Below, in pieces: positions 1-26,965 of a stretch of 52,259 nt of DNA. Source of the DNA: a phage. Position 1 is the first letter of the stretch, and each line of letters begins with the position of its first letter. The stretch lies in NCBI GenBank assembly GCA_025325205.1, contig GCA_025325205.1_4770.1; one strand, written 5' to 3'. Position numbers and translations under genes: made by a program. Under the pieces are notes generated by a model. It was not told the origin of the DNA, did not search any database, and saw only the letters and a list, made by a program, of their open reading frames with translations.

Positions 1-53
1 TGAGAATAAAGACTATATTCCAATCCCAGTTCGGCGACACTTATAACCCCTTA

Positions 54-3496: not shown

Positions 3497-3997
3497 ATAA
3501 ACCCCTTTAACGTTAACGGAATAACTATAACAGGATACGCAAGTTGATTAACATAGCCGGCCGCAACAATTAATAACCACAGTTAACTGTCTCGTGTGCT
3601 TTAAATCTTGTGCGGCAGAATCAGTTACACATACCAGAAACCGAATCTTGTAAACTCATCTCGAGTATTTACATACGGAATTAACTTTATACGAACAATA
3701 TAGGGCAGGTGAGGTGAGGATATAAAGTGTCTAGTGACGAGATAATCTACAAACGATGAATCCTTGGCAGAGATCTAAGAGCCGCCCGCGGCGTTACTAT
3801 AACGTCCCGTGATCGTCAGTGAGGTGATTGTTACGCCATGTGACTGTTACTTGTTCTATTGTTATGTTGTTTATTGTTACACGCGTTATTATTTTTTATT
3901 TGATTAGTATACTATCTATTACAGGACTATACTATAATGTCCAGTATAATTACGTCTGTTACTATCCACCTGCCCACTATGTGCTGTCTATGTATGT

Positions 3998-4066
3998 GCT
4001 ACCTGGTATTTCCTGCGCGTGCTGTTACCTGGTATTTTCAGCACACTCGCGCTACCTGGTATTTCC
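3998..4066. repeat. three direct repeats of G(C/T)TACCTGGTATTT(C/T)C with 26-27 bp period
   Basis: Copies at 3998-4013, 4024-4039, 4051-4066 read directly from sequence; lies in the divergent intergenic region between minus-strand and plus-strand gene blocks. Confidence 0.8.
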
Positions 4067-4150
4067 GGCACACCGTCTACCGTATAGTCCCGGATGTTAT
4101 TATTATTATGAAACACAACTAAAAAAGTTCTAAAATAATGCAGATAATAG

Positions 4151-4179
4151 TTGCATCTGATACCCTGTTGTCATACTAT
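4151..4179 (+). promoter_or_regulatory. candidate sigma70 promoter (TTGCAT-N17-TACTAT)
   Basis: -35 TTGCAT 4151-4156, 17-nt spacer, -10 TACTAT 4174-4179, about 75 nt upstream of the first plus-strand early gene with AAGGGAG RBS. Confidence 0.4.
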
Positions 4180-4254
4180 AACTGCGTAGGGTAAAGGGGG
4201 TTTTAAAGCGGGACACGGGTTCCGCGCCCGCCTCACCCGAAGGGAGATTGCATT

Positions 4255-4560
4255 ATGTCCATTATCTACTTACCGCGTTCTATGTCCCAGTCACAGATCA
4301 CCAAACGTATTATCGGCAAGCGCCTGCACCAACTGGGCCTTACTGCGGAAAAGGTTGACGGGGATTGGGGTTTCGACGAGTATCTGGTAATGCTCCCGGG
4401 CAACGAAAAGTATTCCAGCACCGCGTTATATATTCGCATTAACGAGGACGGCACTGTCAGCTCTTATAGCGTAATGTACGGTCGACCAGTATGCCAAGCG
4501 AATAGCCTTTGGTCTGTGTTCTGCTTTATTACAATGATAGCTAAAGCTATCCAACAATAA
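4255..4560 (+). CDS. hypothetical early protein (paralog family with 6177-6434)
   Basis: 101 aa; N-terminal SQSQITKRIIGKR shared with ORF 6177-6434 (SMITRRIIGKR); good RBS. Confidence 0.45.
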   Translation: MSIIYLPRSMSQSQITKRIIGKRLHQLGLTAEKVDGDWGFDEYLVMLPGNEKYSSTALYIRINEDGTVSSYSVMYGRPVCQANSLWSVFCFITMIAKAIQQ

Positions 4561-4636: not shown

Positions 4637-5116
4637 ATGGTTACTATCACCCGCGTAGCAAAAGACGCTCGCTTCTTTGCCACTATGTCTAACGCTCGCC
4701 GTGCCTTAAAAAAGGTTCTGGATGTGGACACTGCGACAGCTAACAGCTTTATTCACCAGGAACCGCACGAGGACGGTGGTCGCTACTGGTACAGCGAAAG
4801 CGCGGTTAATAAGGCAGCTAGCGATCTGGTTGAAGCTGATAAAGCGACTGTCGTGGAAGTGACCACACAACCAGCTCCAACCGATCCCGCTAAAAGCAAA
4901 ACACGCAGCGAAACGCGCAACGGGGTCCGCCGCCCAATTAAAGGTAAATGCGCAGACGTTTGGAACGCTCTGGATAATATGTTGCCTAATGGTGTGCCAA
5001 CTATTGGTAACGTCCGTGACCTTGCGAAAGCTAATGGTTGGAATATTAATAATGCAACGATTGAATTCTACGCATGGCGTAAATTCCACGGGCTCAATAA
5101 TAAAGGGGGCAACTAA
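4637..5116 (+). CDS. hypothetical protein
   Basis: ORF 4622-5116; start chosen at ATG 4637 preceded by GGAG (4624-4627); no motif recognised. Confidence 0.4.
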   Translation: MVTITRVAKDARFFATMSNARRALKKVLDVDTATANSFIHQEPHEDGGRYWYSESAVNKAASDLVEADKATVVEVTTQPAPTDPAKSKTRSETRNGVRRPIKGKCADVWNALDNMLPNGVPTIGNVRDLAKANGWNINNATIEFYAWRKFHGLNNKGGN

Positions 5117-6176: not shown

Positions 6177-6434
6177 ATGTCTACAACATTAAACCAGTCA
6201 ATGATCACCCGTCGCATTATCGGCAAACGTATAGCTAATCTTGCGACTATCACCGCAGAGCTGGAAACTTTCGGTAATAACGCGCGCAAATATCGCGTCC
6301 GTTGCAATGGTCTTAACGTTTATTTAACAGTGTTCGACGACGGTAAAGTTCACGCGGAACTGCATACTATGGGCCGCCTGGTTGCAACCGCGTCCACGCT
6401 GGTGGGCTTCATCAACCTGTTAAAAAACTGCTAA
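6177..6434 (+). CDS. hypothetical early protein (paralog of 4255-4560)
   Basis: 85 aa; shares N-terminal ITRRIIGKR motif and EDG/DDGKV segment with ORF 4255-4560. Confidence 0.45.
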   Translation: MSTTLNQSMITRRIIGKRIANLATITAELETFGNNARKYRVRCNGLNVYLTVFDDGKVHAELHTMGRLVATASTLVGFINLLKNC

Positions 6435-19461: not shown

Positions 19462-20384
19462 TGGCCGGTTTAGGAATGCAATTTAACGCTGGACAACACG
19501 CAGAGCGTCAACACAATAGCTTGATGCCCGCTGGTTGGTATGTTGTTCAGATTGTAAACTCTGAAATCAAACCGACTAAAACTCCAGGCGGTGCGCGTCT
19601 GAATCTTCAGTTTAAGATTATGCAGGGTGATTTTGCTGGTCGTGTAATGTTTGGCGGTTACAACGTCAAGAACGCGAACCCTGTCGCTGTACAGATTGCA
19701 ATGGAAGAACTGGCAGAGCTGTCCCGTGCTGTTAAAGTTCCAGTTTGGAACGATACCGAACAACTGCACGGTATTCCGTTCAACCTGAAAGTGAAAGTTC
19801 GTCAGCAACCTGGCTATGAGCCAAACAACGAACCTCAGATTTATCAAGCAATTGATAATATGGAAGGTGTTGTATACGCAACTAAGGCGGACATGGCTAA
19901 CCTGCCTAAATCAACTCCGGCAGCGGCAGCACAGTCTCCAGCATTTGGTGGCGGTGCGTTCGGTGGTACTCAGCAGCCACAGCAGCAGCAACCGCAGCAG
20001 GGTTTCCCTGGTGCATTTGGGCAGCAGCCGCAGCAACAGCAGCAGCAACCTCAGACTCAGGGGTTCCAGCAGCAGCAGCAACAGCAACAACAGCCGCAGC
20101 AGCCGGTACAGCAGCAGCAACCGCAGCAGTCTGGAACAGTTGATTTTAACAGTGCGGCACAATCTCAACCGTGGGCTAATGGTGCGCAGCAGCAGACTCA
20201 GCAGCAACCTAACTGGGCAACTCAGCAGGTACAGCCTGGAGCAGAGCAACCACAAACTCAAGCTCAGAATACTGGTACTGCTAACCATGCAGAACCTGAA
20301 GTCCAGGATGATATCGCTAAAGCAGCTCAGACCAAGACTCCACCGTGGAAACGTTCCACTGAAGGCGATGACGCTGCACAGTAA
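19461..20384 (+). CDS. putative ssDNA-binding protein with Gln/Pro-rich low-complexity linker
   Basis: Globular N-terminal part then QQPQQQQ... tract and acidic C-terminus; position next to Sak4-like ATPase; no OB-fold motif verified. Confidence 0.35.
   Translation: MAGLGMQFNAGQHAERQHNSLMPAGWYVVQIVNSEIKPTKTPGGARLNLQFKIMQGDFAGRVMFGGYNVKNANPVAVQIAMEELAELSRAVKVPVWNDTEQLHGIPFNLKVKVRQQPGYEPNNEPQIYQAIDNMEGVVYATKADMANLPKSTPAAAAQSPAFGGGAFGGTQQPQQQQPQQGFPGAFGQQPQQQQQQPQTQGFQQQQQQQQQPQQPVQQQQPQQSGTVDFNSAAQSQPWANGAQQQTQQQPNWATQQVQPGAEQPQTQAQNTGTANHAEPEVQDDIAKAAQTKTPPWKRSTEGDDAAQ
19971..20130 (+). repeat. CAG/CAA-rich (poly-Gln/Pro) coding microsatellite
   Basis: Runs of cagcagcagcaaccgcagcag read from sequence inside ORF 19461-20384. 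Confidence 0.8.
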
Positions 20385-21397: not shown

Positions 21398-23401
21398 ATG
21401 TTCAAACTACGTGATTATCAGCAAGAAGCTGTAAACAGTACATTGCGCTATTTCATCAAGTATGGTGAAAAGTCAGGAAATCCTGTTATCTTGTTGCCTA
21501 CAGGGACTGGTAAGTCCCTTGTAATTGCTGGTCTATTAAAGACAATTCACGATAATTGGGGTAGTACCCGCATGATGGTAATTACTCACGTAAAAGAATT
21601 GATAGACCAGAACCACGATAAATTTAAGAAGTTGTGGCCTGAAGCACCGACTGGTATTTATAGTGCTGGTATGGGTCGCAAGGATAAGAATGCAATGATA
21701 ACGTTCGCAGGTATTCAGTCTGTTGCAAAACAAGCTAAATACTTCGAGGACGTTGATATTATTATAGTTGACGAATGTGACCTTATTAGCCCAAATCAGC
21801 AAACAAGTTATCAGAAGTTCTTTGCGCACATTCGTGAAAAGAACCCATATCTAAAGATTATCGGTCTTACTGCTACGAGTTGGCGTCTTGGTTTTGGTTC
21901 TATTATCAAAGATGATTATGCGCCTAACGCTTTATTTGATGAAATCGTATTTAACGCATGTACCGTAGAGTGCTTCAACTGGTTCATTGATGAAGGTTAT
22001 CTTGTTCCGTTAGTACCACGTAAAACAAAGAAAGAGTATGATGTAAGTGGTGTTCATACTCGAGGCGGTGAGTTCATTGAAAGTGAGCTTCAAAAGGTTG
22101 TAAACGATCCTGATGTAACTCGCCATTTATTAGATGATGCGATTAGTATTGCGGAAGAAGAGAATAGAATGAGTTGGCTTGTCTTTTGTGCTGGTGTAGA
22201 CCATGCAAAAGATGTCAAAGACTACCTCAACGAGCGCGGTATTAGTTGTGAAGTTGTAACTGGTGATACACCGAAAGCCTTGCGTGACCAGTATCTTATT
22301 GATTTTAAAGCTGGTCGTTTACAGGCAATAGCAAACAACAACGTATTGACGACAGGCTTTGACCATCCGGGTCTTGACTTGATAATTGGTATGCGCCCGT
22401 CCCAATCTTCCCGCCTATGGGTTCAGATGCTTGGACGTGGTACTCGACCTGATTATGCAGATGGTTTTGATTTGACCACAACGGAAGGTCGTTTGCAAGC
22501 TATCTCCGCTTCGCATAAACAGAACTGTCTTGTACTAGACTATGCAGGTAATACAAGACGTCTTGGACCTATTAACGACCCTGTAATTCCTAAGCGTCCA
22601 GGGCAGAAAGGAAAGTCCGCTGCACCTGTTAAAGAATGCCCGGTATGTAAAACCTGGAACCATGCGTCGGTTCGCTATTGTGGTGGGTTAAAACCATTCG
22701 ATACAAGCGGTATGTCCCATGAAGAAATACTCTATCTTCAAGGGTTAGGATATACCATTACAAATAATAAAGCGTGTCGTGCTGGTTATTGCGGTCATGA
22801 GTTTACTTTTGAGAAGAAACTGATGGCGAGTGCTAGTACGAAGGCTATTATCAAGAATGATTTGCCAGTCACTGAAGTGTTGAAAGTTGATATGGTGAGT
22901 TACTATCGTCACGAGAACAGGGGTGACCGTTCTAAGCCACCAACACTTCGTGTAGATTATCTTTGTGGGTCACAAACTATTCAACAATATATTTGTCTGT
23001 TTCATACTGGCTTTGCAGGCAAGAAAGCGCGTAACTGGTGGCGCGAGCATTGCAGCTTGGCAATCCCAGCCAACATTGACGAAGCCCTCAATGTGGTCAG
23101 CCAGCTCCGTGTACCGACGCACATTTATGTCAACTTGAAGGGTAAGTTCCCTGAAGTGTTGAATAGTTGTTATGACGGTAGTGAGTTCGGTAAGAAAGAA
23201 GCAACCAACGAACGTCCGGTTGTACAAATCGCAGCAATGAATGGCTTGTCCCAGTTTGGTGGAAGTTATACGAATAAGTTTGATGAAGACGAGCAGACTG
23301 ATTCTCGTACGACAGTATTGCATTCTACGTCTAATCAACCTATTCTTACTGGTAACGGTAAAGAACTACCACCAGATTTTGATGACGACATTCCATTTTG
23401 A
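21398..23401 (+). CDS. SF2 DNA helicase with zinc-finger and SSB-like acidic C-terminal tip
   Basis: Walker A LLPTGTGKS, Walker B IIVDECD, TATSWR, QMLGRGTR; CPVCKTWNHASVRYC; last residues PPDFDDDIPF. Confidence 0.75.
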   Translation: MFKLRDYQQEAVNSTLRYFIKYGEKSGNPVILLPTGTGKSLVIAGLLKTIHDNWGSTRMMVITHVKELIDQNHDKFKKLWPEAPTGIYSAGMGRKDKNAMITFAGIQSVAKQAKYFEDVDIIIVDECDLISPNQQTSYQKFFAHIREKNPYLKIIGLTATSWRLGFGSIIKDDYAPNALFDEIVFNACTVECFNWFIDEGYLVPLVPRKTKKEYDVSGVHTRGGEFIESELQKVVNDPDVTRHLLDDAISIAEEENRMSWLVFCAGVDHAKDVKDYLNERGISCEVVTGDTPKALRDQYLIDFKAGRLQAIANNNVLTTGFDHPGLDLIIGMRPSQSSRLWVQMLGRGTRPDYADGFDLTTTEGRLQAISASHKQNCLVLDYAGNTRRLGPINDPVIPKRPGQKGKSAAPVKECPVCKTWNHASVRYCGGLKPFDTSGMSHEEILYLQGLGYTITNNKACRAGYCGHEFTFEKKLMASASTKAIIKNDLPVTEVLKVDMVSYYRHENRGDRSKPPTLRVDYLCGSQTIQQYICLFHTGFAGKKARNWWREHCSLAIPANIDEALNVVSQLRVPTHIYVNLKGKFPEVLNSCYDGSEFGKKEATNERPVVQIAAMNGLSQFGGSYTNKFDEDEQTDSRTTVLHSTSNQPILTGNGKELPPDFDDDIPF

Positions 23402-23408
23402 GGCTTAT

Positions 23409-23648
23409 ATGGCAAAGATGACTTTTAGGAGTAATGACCATTTACCAGAAGAAGGTGAATGGAAGACTTTTAAAGAGTGGGAAGAGTTGGGTTATGGTGT
23501 AATTAAAGGTGAAAGAGCTAAACGGTTTATTCACGGTGTTGCAGTTTTTCACGAAAGTCAAGTAATCAATATTGAAGATGAGTTCGAAAAATATAAACGT
23601 GAAGAACTGCAAGGAATGTATTGTGGACCAGAATGGTGGAAGGATTAA
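23409..23648 (+). CDS. hypothetical protein
   Basis: ORF 23241-23648 trimmed to ATG 23409 after helicase stop. Confidence 0.3.
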   Translation: MAKMTFRSNDHLPEEGEWKTFKEWEELGYGVIKGERAKRFIHGVAVFHESQVINIEDEFEKYKREELQGMYCGPEWWKD

Positions 23649-24371
23649 ATGTACATATTAGTCGATTATGATCGGATGCAGGTATTAGCTAAGCATCCAA
23701 ACTTCCAACGTCTTCATGAGTATGGAATTCTGTGTTGTAGCGAAAGCTCTGTAGTTCTTCCGTTGGAAGTTGAAGAACTATATAAAGAGTTTGATGATGT
23801 ACAAATGCAACTTTTGTACATCAACTTAACGGGTAATAAGCAAGGTGCTTTATATCCAAAGAAAATGATCAGTAAGATCATTCATTATTTTTTAAATGAA
23901 ATACCGGAGACAGTAATAGATGCGGATGTGGCTGAACAAGCGGACTGGGCAATTGCTAGTAATAAAGAGGGTGAGTGCATGTACCGCGAAGGCAGCTCTG
24001 TTCCAGATTTGGGGGAGGAGCCTAATATTCAAGTACGGAATGATAGTTCATTGGAATCCGCCATCATTGACGGCCCAACCGTACAGACAAATATGGGCAT
24101 ACAAGGGGCATGGACACCGACAAGAGAGCGGCAAGGTACTAGCACACCGGCAAACGAAAAACGTGCCGCAACGTCGCGTACAGCCGGCACTCGCGATATT
24201 ATTTTCGCTGTTGCTGACGAAATGTGGAAAGAAGCTGGTGAACCTCGTGACAAGAAGGAAATCCTTCAGCTTAGAAAACAAATGATGGATCGTTTAGAGG
24301 CAGAAGGTGTGAAGCGTAATACATCAAGTAATACATTAGGGGTCTGGGTAAAAGAACGTGGCTTAAATTAA
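23649..24371 (+). CDS. hypothetical protein
   Basis: 240-aa ORF; no motif recognised. Confidence 0.4.
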   Translation: MYILVDYDRMQVLAKHPNFQRLHEYGILCCSESSVVLPLEVEELYKEFDDVQMQLLYINLTGNKQGALYPKKMISKIIHYFLNEIPETVIDADVAEQADWAIASNKEGECMYREGSSVPDLGEEPNIQVRNDSSLESAIIDGPTVQTNMGIQGAWTPTRERQGTSTPANEKRAATSRTAGTRDIIFAVADEMWKEAGEPRDKKEILQLRKQMMDRLEAEGVKRNTSSNTLGVWVKERGLN

Positions 24372-24383
24372 TTAACTAAAATA

Positions 24384-24412
24384 TTGCATAGTTCTTTTAG
24401 AGGGGTTATAGT
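24384..24412 (+). promoter_or_regulatory. strong candidate sigma70 promoter (TTGCAT-N17-TATAGT)
   Basis: -35 TTGCAT 24384-24389, 17-nt spacer, -10 TATAGT 24407-24412; GAGG RBS and ATG 24468 downstream. Confidence 0.55.
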
Positions 24413-24467
24413 GCAACCACTTAGAACGTAGTTCACAACCAATAACCACACTGTGAGGATTTAAATC

Positions 24468-25292
24468 ATGGCTAAAGAGAAAACTCCAGAACAACTGGAA
24501 GCAGAAGAAGCAGCAAAGAAAGCAGCAAAAGAAGCTGAAGCAAAGAAAAAACGTGAAGCTGAAGAAAAAGCAGCACGTGAATTGCAGGCTAAAGTTGACG
24601 CCGCAATGAACGAAGCCACTGCCGGTTACAATGTGATCGAAGGTGCTATGTCCGCTGTTAAAGAACAGTTTGACACTCTGCACGAAGGTTCGTTGCTGGA
24701 CGAAGTTAAAGCAGTTGAAGGCGTAGTTACCGCTCAACTGAAGACCGCTAAAGAAGGTCTGAAAGCTGTTAAAGCAGCAGCACGTAAAGTTAAAGACAAC
24801 GATCAACTGAAAACTGCCGTTGCAGCATCTGAAGATCTGGTTTCCGGTGTTGAAGCCACTCTGAAAGATGTTAAAGGCCGTGTATCCGCTGCCCGCGAAG
24901 CCACTAAAGCCGCTGAAAAAGCGAAACGTGACGCTGAACGCGCTGAGAAGAAACGTCTGCAAGACGAAGAGCGCGCTCGTAAAGCAGCAGAACGCGAAGC
25001 TAAGAAAGAGCCGGAACAGAACGGTATTCGTAAGCCTGGTGTTGGTACGCTGTGCCGTGCTGCATGGGACATTTTTGATGCTGTTACCCTGGAGCTGGGT
25101 CAGACTGCACCGATCAGCTACGTTCTGCCGGTTGCACTGGACAAAGGCCTGAACGAAGCGAACGTCAAAGCGGAATACGCTCGCTGGAAGAAATACATGG
25201 GCATTACTGGTCGCGTATCAGTCCCAGTACCTGCTAATATTGCACAGGCGGCCGCTAACGTAGAAATTCCGTCTCAGAAATCTGCAGAGTAA
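24468..25292 (+). CDS. Lys/Glu/Ala-rich coiled-coil-type protein, unknown function
   Basis: 274 aa, charged repetitive EAKK/AAKE composition; codons look like highly expressed E. coli genes (CGT, CTG, GAA, AAA, GGT, GCT) unlike neighbours. Confidence 0.5.
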   Translation: MAKEKTPEQLEAEEAAKKAAKEAEAKKKREAEEKAARELQAKVDAAMNEATAGYNVIEGAMSAVKEQFDTLHEGSLLDEVKAVEGVVTAQLKTAKEGLKAVKAAARKVKDNDQLKTAVAASEDLVSGVEATLKDVKGRVSAAREATKAAEKAKRDAERAEKKRLQDEERARKAAEREAKKEPEQNGIRKPGVGTLCRAAWDIFDAVTLELGQTAPISYVLPVALDKGLNEANVKAEYARWKKYMGITGRVSVPVPANIAQAAANVEIPSQKSAE

Positions 25293-25316
25293 TCTGTAGA
25301 CACTTCGGAAACTCAG

Positions 25317-25345
25317 AAGGGGCATTTACTGCCCCTTTGTTATCT
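25317..25345 (+). terminator. rho-independent terminator
   Basis: GGGGCA-ttta-CTGCCCC hairpin followed by TTTGTTATCTT. Confidence 0.55.
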
Positions 25346-25360
25346 TACCCCGAGGTTCAA

Positions 25361-26125
25361 ATGTTTGCACAAGCCATTATCGCCCACCACTGGGCTCAAG
25401 CCAAATTTGGAAATCATATGAAAATTATTAATACTCAGGAACCTGAGAAGTTAGTTCGTGAACGTGGTATTCTTGATGTACATTCCATTTTTCATACCAT
25501 TCAAGGCGAAGGCCCATTTTGTGGTCAACCTGCCGTATTCGTTCGATTAGCTGGTTGTAACCTGCAATGCCCAGGTTGCGATACAAACTATACGTCCAAT
25601 CGTAATAAAATGAGTCACAGTGATATTTGGCAAGAAATCGTTCGTGTCACTGGTGAAGCCAAGACTAAATTAGTTGTCATTACTGGTGGCGAACCTTTCC
25701 GTCAACCTGAAGTTGTTAGTTTTATCAACTACCTTATTGATATGAAAGGATACCGTGTACAGGTTGAAACTAACGGGACTATGCCTATCCCGCGTGAACT
25801 CAACTATAGTTGTGTGGTAGTATGTAGTCCTAAGGCAGCAAAGATTCACCCTAGCGTTTCCGCTCGAGCAAATGCTTTCAAATATGTAATGAAAAGTGGA
25901 AACGTCAACGAGGAAGATGGATTACCGTTGCAGGCACTGGATCACCGTGCAACACCATTTATCGCACGTCCGCCTGTACACTTTAAAGGTAATATTTATC
26001 TTCAGCCTATGGATGAACAAGACGACGATGCTAATAAAGCAAACGCTCAAGCTGTCGTTAAATACGCAATGAAGCATAATTATATCGTGCAATTGCAGGT
26101 TCATAAGTATTTAGGTGTAGAATAA
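25361..26125 (+). CDS. queE: 7-carboxy-7-deazaguanine synthase (radical SAM, QueE-like)
   Basis: GEGPFCG ... LAGCNLQCPGCDT (CxxxCxxC radical-SAM cluster motif), VITGGEP; start chosen at ATG 25361 after GAGG. Confidence 0.7.
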   Translation: MFAQAIIAHHWAQAKFGNHMKIINTQEPEKLVRERGILDVHSIFHTIQGEGPFCGQPAVFVRLAGCNLQCPGCDTNYTSNRNKMSHSDIWQEIVRVTGEAKTKLVVITGGEPFRQPEVVSFINYLIDMKGYRVQVETNGTMPIPRELNYSCVVVCSPKAAKIHPSVSARANAFKYVMKSGNVNEEDGLPLQALDHRATPFIARPPVHFKGNIYLQPMDEQDDDANKANAQAVVKYAMKHNYIVQLQVHKYLGVE

Positions 26126-26203: not shown

Positions 26204-26965
26204 ATGATCAAATATGTCCAATTACTTGGTGAGATTGTTCCGGAAGATGTATTGAATAAGTGCCTGTTCGATGAAGACGGGTTTGTAAAACATTATGTAG
26301 ATACACCTTCCCAGTTTGCATCTCACTCGGCTCTTGGATTTGTAATTCGAGCTGGATATGCAGTGGATGTGTTGAACGACATGAGTCCTACAGTCACTGT
26401 TTTTGTTGAAGGTATGGACGTACATGATCTTATGAATTTAAAGACCGTTTATAACACGCATGTGACACCACCACGTAATGCACTTTACAAATGGCGTATC
26501 AATACTTCTGTTAGTAGAATCCAAAAACCAGCAGAAGAAGCGGAAGCGGATGCCAAGAAGTACACGACATCTACTCAGAAACTAGCTGGTATGATGGAGG
26601 ATGTACTTACGAGCGCCTTTAAAGTTGATCGTAACAAAGAAGGTGAGCCAGAAGTATTCATTGATGAAGCATTAATTAAGAAAGATCATATCCAGGAGAT
26701 TAAAGCTCCACGTCCGAATAAATATATGCGCAAAATTAAAACTTTTGAATCGCATGATATTAACGGTAGCCCGATTGAAATTGATGTATGGGTTGACGTG
26801 TACGACGTAATTAAAGCATTCAATGTAACCAGTGGGCCCATGCAACATGCACTGAAGAAAGTGCTGTGTGCTGGTGAGCGCGGTCATAAAGACTTGCTGA
26901 AAGACCTCAACGACATCATTGCATCCGTTGAGCGTGAAATTGAAATGGTTAAGGAAGGTAATTAA
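26204..26965 (+). CDS. hypothetical protein embedded in the 7-deazaguanine module
   Basis: 253-aa ORF between queE and gat-queC; no motif recognised. Confidence 0.45.
   Translation: MIKYVQLLGEIVPEDVLNKCLFDEDGFVKHYVDTPSQFASHSALGFVIRAGYAVDVLNDMSPTVTVFVEGMDVHDLMNLKTVYNTHVTPPRNALYKWRINTSVSRIQKPAEEAEADAKKYTTSTQKLAGMMEDVLTSAFKVDRNKEGEPEVFIDEALIKKDHIQEIKAPRPNKYMRKIKTFESHDINGSPIEIDVWVDVYDVIKAFNVTSGPMQHALKKVLCAGERGHKDLLKDLNDIIASVEREIEMVKEGN

What the first reader, a model, noticed from the sequence alone, without database searches (positions are those of the whole stretch)
24468..25292. Charged coiled-coil-type protein with host-optimal codon usage and its own strong promoter and terminator
Seen: the 274-aa Lys/Glu/Ala-rich ORF uses codons typical of highly expressed E. 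coli genes, unlike adjacent phage genes, and is bracketed by a near-consensus promoter (24384-24412) and a terminator (25317-25345), immediately upstream of the DNA-modification operon. Inference: a very abundant protein, possibly nucleic-acid binding or structural, possibly acquired from or adapted to the host translation system.
Basis: partly seen in the sequence, partly recalled or inferred. Interest (0 to 1): 0.5.

Follow-up and report, generated by a model that had tools for sequence, protein, structure and literature searches.

The report
Abundant rod-plus-DNA-binding-domain early phage protein
This 9g-like coliphage gene, built for very high expression, encodes an uncharacterised protein with a helical rod and a small basic helix-turn-helix-like domain; it most likely coats or organises phage DNA, and its function has never been tested.

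Summary
The window is a Nonagvirus (phage 9g-like) genome. ORF 24468-25292 has the highest E. coli codon adaptation of 68 ORFs (CAI 0.62 against a mean of 0.29). That is 9.5 sd above the same protein recoded with the phage's own codon usage. Enterobacterial-phage and Alteromonas-phage orthologues also rank first in their 20-kb modules.

The promoter matches only 8 of 12 consensus positions, so "near-consensus" overstates it. However, a TTGC-17-TAnnnT motif lies 66-94 nt upstream of the start codon in 54 of 69 distinct orthologous loci, against 4% of control windows. A hairpin terminator follows the gene.

The protein is a three-helix rod (residues 7-178) plus a roughly 75-residue basic three-helix domain. 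That domain is absent from Pfam and PDB, has at least 2,096 cluster representatives, and is essentially confined to phages. It always sits in a helicase - neighbour - this gene - QueE...DpdA - clamp - polymerase block. In some phages the low-expression neighbour gene is fused to it.

My best reading (about 0.45) is an abundant, non-virion, early DNA-binding architectural or replication-organiser protein, comparable to phi29 p6 and p16.7. Host origin and a virion role are not supported. It is not needed for the modification chemistry. Its function is untested.

The parts
24362..24383 (+). A+T-rich stretch (TTAATTAACTAAAATA...) directly upstream of the -35 hexamer; possible UP element
   Evidence: Read from the sequence. 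This is inference only.
24384..24412 (+). Sigma-70-type promoter TTGCAT-17-TATAGT
   Evidence: Sequence. It matches 8 of 12 consensus positions and the scanner did not report it. The motif class is conserved 66-94 nt upstream of the ATG in 54 of 69 orthologous loci against 4.4% of controls (alignment). Promoters of the same style lie in other intergenic regions of the window.
24419..24467 (+). Predicted 5' leader: A/C-rich and weakly structured, with a GAGGA Shine-Dalgarno at 24455-24459, 8 nt before the ATG
   Evidence: The fold is -5.2 kcal/mol, z +0.85. GGAG-type Shine-Dalgarno sequences are conserved in orthologues. The transcription start is inferred.
24468..25292 (+). Coding sequence of the 274-aa protein (29.5 kDa, pI 8.7), PHROG 11298
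24486..25001 (+). Helical rod, residues 7-178. Helices 7-68, 77-107 and 112-178 pack as a spectrin-like three-helix bundle. Residues 1-50 and 146-182 are the Lys/Glu/Ala-rich parts.
25002..25226 (+). Conserved C-terminal domain, residues 179-253. It has a PEQNGIRKP arm/hairpin followed by three helices (195-210, 216-225, 230-243) and a GITGRV motif. It is basic and HTH-like.
25316..25348 (+). Intrinsic terminator: GAAGGGGCA-TTTAC-TGCCCCTTT hairpin plus an interrupted T tract. Probably leaky, because QueE starts 13 nt later with no promoter in between.
   Evidence: It is annotated as a terminator in three GenBank records.
23649..24371 (+). Neighbouring partner gene (240 aa, CAI 0.237). It has a conserved N-domain, a linker, and a C-terminal roughly 55-residue domain that is probably a divergent copy of the same domain. 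In some phages it is fused in frame to the rod-domain gene.
   Evidence: Synteny. Fusions P0148, P0188, P0205 and P0210. hhalign P = 8e-4. tblastn E = 0.01 to a repeat of P0121.
4637..5116 (+). In-window paralogue: a different N-terminal domain followed by the same C-terminal domain (encoded at 4916-5104)
   Evidence: tblastn E = 1e-4. ORF. PHROG cross-hits to phrog_21588, 18634 and 11298.

Best explanation
The gene encodes an abundant, non-virion, early or middle phage protein. Its small basic helix-turn-helix-like C-terminal domain binds nucleic acid, most likely double-stranded phage DNA. Its long helical rod acts as a spacer or self-association element.

The gene is the promoter-proximal unit of the transcript that continues through a leaky terminator into the 7-deazaguanine (QueE...DpdA), clamp and polymerase genes. 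The strong promoter, strong ribosome-binding site and optimal codons should therefore give far more of this protein than of the downstream enzymes.

It acts together with the low-expression neighbour (23649-24371). That neighbour ends in a related domain and is fused to this protein in some phages. The working model is many copies of the short rod-domain protein plus a few copies of the longer N-domain protein on the same ligand, organising replicating phage DNA. This resembles the abundant histone-like p6 and the replication organiser p16.7 of phi29.

Shown by the analysis: the expression signals, codon bias, domain architecture, conservation, synteny and gene fusions.
Inferred: abundance, DNA binding and the organising role.
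For: - Codon adaptation is the highest in the window. The orthologue ranks first in the six enterobacterial-phage and Alteromonas-phage modules tested, and first in 10 of the 14 modules tested overall, including phages of unknown hosts scored with E. coli weights. The SSB gene is the next-highest early gene (CAI 0.478).
- A conserved promoter, Shine-Dalgarno sequence and terminator surround the gene.
- Net charge is positive in 98.6% of 276 domain copies. Conserved Lys/Arg fall at residues 176, 180, 188, 189, 234, 239, 241, 242 and 249.
- Proteins with two or three tandem copies of the domain exist (P0121, P0122, P0225). Multivalency suits a polymer ligand.
- The gene always lies inside the helicase-to-polymerase block. 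This holds for 80 of 80 IMG/VR loci and for distant phages.
- Fusion with the neighbour gene occurs on 9 and 3 independent contigs. The internal promoter, Shine-Dalgarno sequence and Met are retained.
- The protein was not found in Vid5 virions.
- phi29 p6 is a precedent for a highly abundant early phage DNA-coating protein (PMC4974454).
Against: - No experiment bears on this protein or any homologue.
- The putative recognition-helix residues (N229, N232, E236, Y237, R239, W240, K242) are almost invariant across phages of very different hosts. That fits a conserved protein or chemical ligand at least as well as a DNA sequence.
- A few orthologues carry an N-terminal signal-peptide or transmembrane-like segment. 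If that segment exports the protein, it is hard to reconcile with cytoplasmic DNA binding.
- Abundance is inferred from sequence signals only.
Confidence: 0.45

Rival explanations
1. It is a host-takeover or anti-defence protein. Made in bulk early, it titrates a conserved host factor such as a nucleoid protein, RNA polymerase or a nuclease, or it shields phage DNA from defence nucleases.
For: - It has an early-type sigma-70 promoter of its own and very high predicted expression, as for T7 Ocr-type proteins.
- Surface-type residues are invariant across phages of many hosts, which suggests a conserved ligand.
- Its architecture is modular and shuffled.
Against: - It is a strictly syntenic core gene of the replication block and not a variable accessory gene.
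- The domain is basic rather than DNA-mimic-like.
- Two or three paralogues occur per genome.
- Hosts range from alpha-, beta- and gamma-proteobacteria to cyanobacteria, so a single host target would have to be very conserved.
Confidence: 0.15
2. It is a sequence-specific transcription regulator of phage middle or late genes, or an autoregulator. Several GenBank records label homologues 'putative transcriptional activator'.
For: - The fold and turn signature are HTH-like.
- Paralogues with different N-domains resemble a family of regulators.
- Phage-specific promoters share a TTGC -35 element.
- Iteron-like repeats lie at 4000-4073.
Against: - Regulators are rarely the most codon-adapted gene of a genome.
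- The near-invariant helix-3 residues across very divergent phages would demand a conserved operator, and I found none.
- The GenBank labels trace to weak similarity only (FtrA) and have no supporting text in the papers I read.
Confidence: 0.15
3. It is an accessory factor of the 7-deazaguanine DNA modification system. It might load or target DpdA, or read modified DNA to distinguish phage from host DNA.
For: - The gene is always immediately upstream of QueE or DpdA. This holds even in a contig that lost QueE, QueC, QueD and FolE but kept DpdA (L092).
- In cultured phages its genus-by-genus distribution mirrors the proteobacterial/cyanobacterial DpdA clade.
- The terminator layout implies co-transcription with the Que genes.
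Against: - 9g DpdA plus Gat-QueC alone put dG+ into 9-18% of plasmid G in E. coli (PMC6884629), so the protein is not needed for the chemistry.
- The genera of deazaguanine phages with other backbones (Mycobacterium, Arthrobacter, Streptococcus Dp-1) are not among the ten commonest genera in the domain search, although 14 rarer genera were not listed.
- The paralogue at 4637-5116 is far from the cluster.
- The association cannot be separated from shared ancestry of the whole block.
Confidence: 0.12
4. It is an envelope-associated TolA-like or spanin-like rod protein: a membrane anchor, a charged helical rod and a globular head acting at the membrane or in the periplasm.
For: - The Lys/Glu/Ala-rich rod resembles TolA domain II, and JGI names one homologue 'membrane protein involved in colicin uptake'.
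- Seven or more orthologues have an N-terminal hydrophobic signal or transmembrane-like segment: P0140, P0193, P0267, P0269, P0270, RHEph04 gp62 and VpKK5 orf28.
Against: - The window protein and about 97% of homologues have no hydrophobic segment at all.
- There is no Pfam TolA or spanin match.
- The gene is in the replication block and not the lysis cassette.
Confidence: 0.05
5. It is a virion structural or scaffold protein, or a gene recently captured from the host. Both were the first reader's alternatives.
For: High codon adaptation is typical of major structural genes. There is a weak PHROG hit to a tape-measure family (E = 5.6e-4).
Against: - The tape-measure hit is compositional, falling in a helical Ala/Lys/Glu-rich region.
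- The gene lies in the early block on the strand opposite to the morphogenesis genes.
- It was not among the Vid5 virion proteins.
- There is no E. coli, plasmid or genuine bacterial-genome homologue.
Confidence: 0.03

Closest known systems
phi29 protein p6 (viral histone-like, architectural DNA-binding protein)
   Same: It is an early, very abundant, non-virion phage protein that coats phage DNA and is needed for replication initiation and the transcription switch (PMC4974454). The window protein shares the predicted abundance, the early expression and a position among replication genes.
   Different: There is no sequence or fold relationship. p6 is a small protein without a rod or an HTH. 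DNA binding by the window protein is untested.
phi29 protein p16.7 (membrane-anchored replication organiser)
   Same: Its architecture is an N-terminal membrane anchor, a coiled coil and a C-terminal three-helix DNA-binding domain. It is an early protein that organises replication (partly from memory; the membrane and TP/ssDNA roles are cited in PMC4974454). A minority of homologues of the window protein have the same three-part layout, including an N-terminal hydrophobic segment.
H-NS / KfrA-type proteins (helical oligomerisation region plus a small DNA-binding domain)
   Same: They combine a helical self-association or spacer region with a small basic DNA-binding domain, and they are abundant.
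   Different: No Pfam, NCBIfam or PDB sequence match to H-NS, MvaT, Lsr2 or KfrA_N was found. Here the rod is predicted to be an intramolecular three-helix bundle or a single charged helix. Oligomerisation is untested.
PHROG 11298 / 18634 / 21588 / 17772 (uncharacterised phage protein families)
   Same: The window protein is a full-length member of phrog_11298 (E = 5e-130). Its C-terminal domain links these PHROGs to each other.
   Different: These families carry no functional annotation, so membership says nothing about function.
ER/K single alpha-helix spacers and TolA domain II
   Same: The Lys/Glu/Ala/Arg-rich helical segments have almost no hydrophobic seam. About 74% of the non-domain residues in the family are K, E, A, R, Q or D.
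   Different: This is a compositional resemblance only. In the Nonagvirus protein a roughly 100-residue insert turns the rod into a three-helix bundle.

Membership tests
Unnamed phage domain family (PEQNG[IV]R[RK]P ... W..D ... EYARW[RK]K[FY].G..GR); PHROG 11298 | Full-length profile match and conservation of the invariant residues | tested here: met
   phrog_11298 E = 5e-130 over residues 1-274. Invariant residues are P182, N185, P190, W200, D204, Y237, A238, W240, G248 and R249. The profile search found 2,096 representatives at E <= 1e-3.
Unnamed phage domain family | Position in the helicase - neighbour - X - QueE/DpdA - clamp - PolA block | tested here: met
   80 of 80 IMG/VR loci.
Helix-turn-helix / winged-helix DNA-binding domains | Three-helix core with HTH geometry | tested here: inconclusive
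Helix-turn-helix / winged-helix DNA-binding domains | Binds DNA | not testable with these tools
   Support is indirect only: net charge +4.7 and nine conserved Lys/Arg columns.
Helix-turn-helix / winged-helix DNA-binding domains | Match to a curated HTH family model | tested here: not met
   No Pfam or NCBIfam hit at E <= 1 to any HTH family. None of 56 family members had any Pfam hit.
H-NS / MvaT / Lsr2 / KfrA nucleoid-associated proteins | Sequence or profile similarity to the family's DNA-binding or oligomerisation domain | tested here: not met
   Searches found nothing.
phi29 p16.7-like replication organiser | N-terminal transmembrane anchor | tested here: not met
   The window protein has no hydrophobic segment. 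Only 3 of 270 homologues pass a Kyte-Doolittle threshold, and a few more fall just below it.
TolA (COG3064) | Transmembrane anchor and TolA C-terminal domain III | tested here: not met
   No Pfam TolA match and no transmembrane segment. The resemblance is only compositional.
Tape measure protein (phrog_167) | Long protein in the tail module that matches the profile beyond low-complexity helix | tested here: not met
   E = 5.6e-4 over a helical Ala/Lys/Glu-rich stretch, covering 158 of 1,555 profile positions. The gene is in the early replication block.
DpdB-type (ParB-like ATPase) partner of DpdA | ParB/ATPase domain, and a requirement for base insertion | tested here: not met
   No ParB or ATPase Pfam hit. 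9g DpdA plus Gat-QueC suffice in E. coli (PMC6884629).
Sigma-70 promoter | -35 and -10 hexamers with 16-18 nt spacing, conserved in position | tested here: met
   TTGCAT-17-TATAGT matches 8 of 12 positions. The motif is conserved in 54 of 69 loci against 4.4% of controls. Promoter activity was not tested.
Intrinsic terminator | GC-rich hairpin followed by a T tract | tested here: met
   The T tract is interrupted (TTTGTTATCTT), so termination efficiency is unknown.

The most novel reading that the evidence does not exclude
Queuovirinae-type phages may carry a dedicated two-component 'phage chromatin' system. It would consist of a very abundant short rod-domain protein and a rare long form or neighbour that shares the same DNA-binding domain. 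In some genomes both would be made from one ORF through a nested internal promoter and start codon. The near-invariant recognition surface of the domain would read a feature common to all these genomes, namely 7-deazaguanine-modified DNA, and so mark phage DNA as self for replication and protection.
Probability: 0.1. Interest if true: 0.8.

Novelty: new variant of a known kind. Interest (0 to 1): 0.45.

Why it matters
- Queuovirinae (9g, Seurat/CAjan, NP1, Iggy and the BASEL Nonagvirus and Seuratvirus isolates) are the main model phages for 7-deazaguanine DNA hypermodification.
- The gene that appears to be the most highly expressed early gene of this whole clade sits at the head of the modification and replication operon. 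It is annotated 'hypothetical' everywhere.
- It carries a widespread domain (at least 2,096 cluster representatives at 50% identity) that is missing from Pfam and PDB.
- If the protein coats or organises phage DNA, it would be a new family of phage nucleoid-type proteins. It would also be a necessary piece in understanding how these phages replicate, modify and shield their genomes.
- If it does something else at such abundance, that would be informative as well.
- The protein is small, soluble-looking and confidently modelled, so the question can be tested directly.

Tried and rejected
- Pfam, NCBIfam and PDB sequence and profile searches on the protein, its C-terminal domain, the neighbour gene and the paralogue gave nothing above noise.
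- A Pfam scan of 56 diverse family members, looking for informative fused domains, found none.
- The host-origin checks against E. coli genomes, plasmids and GTDB genomes were negative.
- Rfam found no known RNA in the window.
- Literature searches on Nonagvirus or Queuovirinae combined with proteomics, RNA-seq or escapers, and reading of the 9g, Vid5, Iggy, R7M and Hutinet 2019 and 2023 papers, turned up no statement about this gene.
- A homology search starting from the divergent tandem-domain protein P0225 gave only four more proteins, all in the same genomic context.
- The homology search for the neighbour gene gave no names and no Pfam domains.
- I rejected the tape-measure and TolA labels as compositional artefacts.

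Full report
**What the window is**

The 1.1-kb region around the finding is 96-99% identical to Nonagvirus genomes (vB_EcoM_PD328, SE1, BRET, JenP1/2, JenK1, 9g and the BASEL phages ChristophMerian and FritzHoffmann). In every one of them the ORF is annotated 'hypothetical protein'.

The gene order in the window is: DNA ligase, Sak4-like ATPase, DUF669 SSB, Cas4-like exonuclease, SF2 helicase (21398-23401), an 80-aa ORF, a 240-aa ORF (23649-24371), the target (24468-25292), QueE (25361-26125), a 253-aa ORF, Gat-QueC, QueD, FolE, DpdA, the polymerase processivity factor and DNA polymerase. The original 9g paper calls this the early or early/middle region (PMC4276943).

**Checking the observation**

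The ORF is real. It is 274 aa with 20% Ala, 12.8% Lys and 12.8% Glu, a mass of 29.5 kDa and a pI of 8.7.

Codon usage:
- I used Sharp & Li E. coli relative adaptiveness values.
- CAI is 0.624, the highest of 68 ORFs (mean 0.291, sd 0.087).
- The next-highest genes are an odd Gly/Trp/Cys-rich late-strand protein (0.564), the SSB (0.478) and a tail protein (0.43).
- Recoding the same amino-acid sequence 5,000 times with the phage's own codon usage gives 0.375 +/- 0.026 with a maximum of 0.488, so z = 9.5.
- The bias is uniform along the gene (0.57-0.69). It comes from choices such as Leu CTG in 15 of 17 codons (background 17%), no AGA/AGG/CGA/CGG, no ACA, GTT 65% and AAA 80%.
- GC3 is ordinary (0.38), so this is translational selection and not a foreign-composition island.
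- The property is conserved. Orthologues rank first of 20-27 ORFs in the 20-kb modules of a Klebsiella-type phage (0.654), Pantoea phage Vid5 (0.541), three Seuratviruses (0.52-0.59) and Alteromonas phage R7M (0.591).

Promoter:
- TTGCAT-17-TATAGT (24384-24412) matches only 8 of 12 consensus positions, and the consensus scan missed it. 'Near-consensus' is therefore too strong.
- Across 69 distinct orthologous loci, a TTGnnn-16..18-TAnnnT motif begins 66-94 nt upstream of the start codon in 54 of them. The -35 element is mostly TTGC[AG]N, often with a TGn extended -10. The rate in 1,352 control windows from the same loci is 4.4% (p about 1e-59).
- Promoters of the same style sit in other intergenic regions of the window, at 4151, 6117, 7659 and 18657 on the + strand and 36382 and 52043 on the - strand.

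Leader and terminator:
- The predicted leader is unstructured and carries GAGGA 8 nt from the ATG. GGAG-type Shine-Dalgarno sequences are conserved in orthologues.
- The terminator hairpin (25316-25338, -14.3 kcal/mol, z -3.6) is followed by an interrupted T tract. Comparable hairpins follow the gene in 43 of 72 loci.
- QueE starts 13 nt after the T tract, and no + strand promoter was found between the two genes. The Que genes must therefore be transcribed by read-through.
- I infer that this gene is the promoter-proximal and most strongly expressed unit of the modification and replication transcript.

**The protein**

- AlphaFold2, using a 29-sequence alignment, gives mean pLDDT 91. Helices 7-68, 77-107 and 112-178 are followed by a short hairpin (183-188) and three helices (195-210, 216-225, 230-243).
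- Alignment of homologues shows that only the last roughly 75 residues are conserved across the family.
- The helical region varies from about 60 to 180 residues. In the short homologues (150-200 aa) it is a Lys/Glu/Ala-rich helix with almost no hydrophobic positions, beginning with a T-P-E-Q helix cap. About 74% of non-domain residues in the family are K, E, A, R, Q or D.

The C-terminal domain:
- The domain modelled alone has pLDDT 85.6.
- Foldseek against viral models finds only uncharacterised family members.
- The segment ALDKGLNEANV fits the classical HTH turn pattern.
- Over 276 domain copies the net charge averages +4.7 and is positive in 98.6%. Nine columns are at least 70% Lys/Arg, corresponding to residues 176, 180, 188, 189, 234, 239, 241, 242 and 249.
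- There is no Pfam, NCBIfam or PDB sequence match for the protein or domain. None of 56 diverse members has any Pfam domain.

**The family and its context**

- A profile of the domain finds 2,096 representatives (50% identity clusters) at E <= 1e-3 and 1,104 at E <= 1e-10.
- Domain architectures vary. Most have a rod followed by the domain. Some have the domain followed by a rod, and some have two or three tandem domains (P0122, P0121, P0225). Others place different N-terminal domains in front.
- The window has a second member at 4637-5116. Many related phages have a second copy between the helicase and the 240-aa gene.
- The 240-aa neighbour probably ends in a divergent copy of the domain. 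The evidence is hhalign P = 8e-4 in the expected register, tblastn E = 0.01 to one repeat of P0121, and a weak Foldseek hit to the SE1Kor orthologue.

Every genomic context I examined is the same block:
- 80 of 80 IMG/VR loci have helicase, (second copy), the 240-aa gene, the target, then QueE 50-450 nt downstream, QueC, FolE, DpdA and the clamp.
- The same holds for Pseudomonas NP1 and PSASB_03, Vibrio VpKK5, Rhizobium RHEph04 (with five small genes intervening), Achromobacter ART and several metagenomic contigs.
- One contig (L092) has lost QueE, QueC, QueD and FolE but keeps helicase, a triple-domain protein, DpdA, the clamp and PolA.
- In cultured phages the domain's distribution by genus matches that of the proteobacterial/cyanobacterial DpdA clade almost exactly: Escherichia 41/41, Pseudomonas 31/31, Vibrio 24/23, Rhizobium 13/14, Enterobacteria 8/8. 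The genera of deazaguanine phages of actinobacteria and of Streptococcus are not among the ten commonest genera in the domain search; 14 rarer genera were not itemised.
- The domain is therefore a hallmark of this phage backbone. It is not a universal companion of DpdA.

The family is restricted to phages:
- No DNA match in 5,426 complete E. coli genomes.
- No protein match in 72,556 plasmids.
- Only 7 hits in 185,579 species genomes; at least 3 of these lie on phage-sized MAG contigs and 2 on very short contigs.

**Link to the neighbour gene**

- Four cluster representatives (P0148, P0188, P0205, P0210) join the N-domain of the 240-aa protein to the rod and domain in one 340-380-aa ORF.
- P0148 is seen on 9 contigs and P0210 on 3. 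In each case the fused gene replaces the two genes directly upstream of QueE.
- Inside the two fused ORFs that I examined, a promoter-like motif lies 79 and 70 nt upstream of an internal Met, preceded by a GGAG Shine-Dalgarno sequence. That Met aligns with the start of the stand-alone protein.
- These phages may therefore make a long and a short product that share the C-terminal part.
- In the window, the neighbour has one of the lowest CAI values (0.237) and the target the highest.
- This pattern suggests a rare long component and an abundant short component that carry the same domain and act on the same ligand.

**Mechanism**

The most economical reading is an abundant early DNA-binding architectural or replication-organiser protein.

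Arguments in favour:
- The expression signals.
- A basic HTH-like domain.
- Multivalent tandem variants.
- Fixed membership of the replication block.
- Absence from Vid5 virions (PMC6266253).
- The precedent of phi29 p6, a highly abundant histone-like early protein needed for replication and transcription switching, and of the replication organiser p16.7 (PMC4974454).

Arguments against:
- The weak structural matches.
- The near-invariance of the putative recognition surface across phages of unrelated hosts, which suits a conserved protein or chemical ligand.
- A minority of orthologues with an N-terminal signal or transmembrane-like segment.

A role as an obligatory cofactor of DpdA is unlikely. 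9g DpdA plus Gat-QueC alone modify 9-18% of plasmid G in E. coli (PMC6884629). A reader or targeting role for modified DNA is not excluded, and it is the most interesting open possibility.

**Verdict**

- The protein belongs to a large uncharacterised phage domain family. It most resembles, in function only, known abundant phage DNA-organising proteins.
- I rate it a new variant of a known kind, of moderate interest. The function is open and directly testable.

Noticed in passing
window 4000-4073 (within the non-coding region 3497-4254): Three direct repeats of TACCTGGTATTTYCNGCRCRY are spaced 26-27 nt apart, about 80 nt upstream of a TTGCAT-17-TACTAT promoter at 4151-4179. They look like iterons or operators in the large regulatory region that the 9g paper says holds divergent promoters.
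   Followed up: partly
window 35443-36150 (- strand): A 235-aa protein has a Gly/Trp-rich N-terminus, a Gln/Asn-rich middle and Cys clusters (CCC, C-terminal GCCG). It has the second-highest CAI in the window (0.564) and its own TTGCAC-17-TACAAT promoter at 36382-36354. It belongs to phrog_9288, of unknown function.
   Followed up: partly
window 4637-5116 (+): This is a paralogue of the target's C-terminal domain behind a different N-terminal domain (motif SNARRALKK). The same N-domain is found fused to a Lys/Glu/Ala rod plus the domain in the metagenomic protein P0252.
   Followed up: partly
L103 6001-7143 and L104 6001-7080: These are in-frame fusions of the neighbour gene's N-domain with the rod-domain protein. 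They retain a promoter-like motif, a GGAG Shine-Dalgarno sequence and a Met at the position of the stand-alone gene's start. This suggests nested long and short products from one ORF.
   Followed up: partly
L009 4905-5507 (RHEph04 gp62), L011 4872-5267 (VpKK5 orf28), and proteins P0140, P0193, P0267, P0269, P0270: Orthologues at the same genomic position begin with a signal-peptide or transmembrane-like hydrophobic segment (for example MKSQFAFPVLLFAAAAV, and an LAAC lipobox-like motif in P0140). In some of them the charged rod lies C-terminal to the domain.
   Followed up: partly
window 23406-23648 (+): An 80-aa ORF between the helicase and the 240-aa gene has a sub-threshold match to the N-terminal ssDNA-binding domain of ArdC (PF08401, E = 2.7e-4, 21.6 bits against a cut-off of 22.6).
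   Followed up: no
window 26204-26965 (+): A 253-aa ORF of unknown function is inserted between QueE and Gat-QueC. Its C-terminal roughly 70 residues match several PHROGs, one of them labelled ATPase. There is a very weak DndE-like hit (E about 0.09). It is present in Nonagvirus and Seuratvirus loci but absent from most distant relatives.
   Followed up: no
window 4255-4560 and 6177-6434 (+): These are two small paralogous early genes sharing SQITKRIIGKR. Each is preceded by a TTGC-type promoter (4151, 6117), and their CAI is relatively high (0.38, 0.44).
   Followed up: no
window 19964-20210 (+): The DUF669 SSB gene contains a Gln/Pro-rich CAG/CAA repeat tract. At CAI 0.478 it is the second most codon-adapted early gene.
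   Followed up: no
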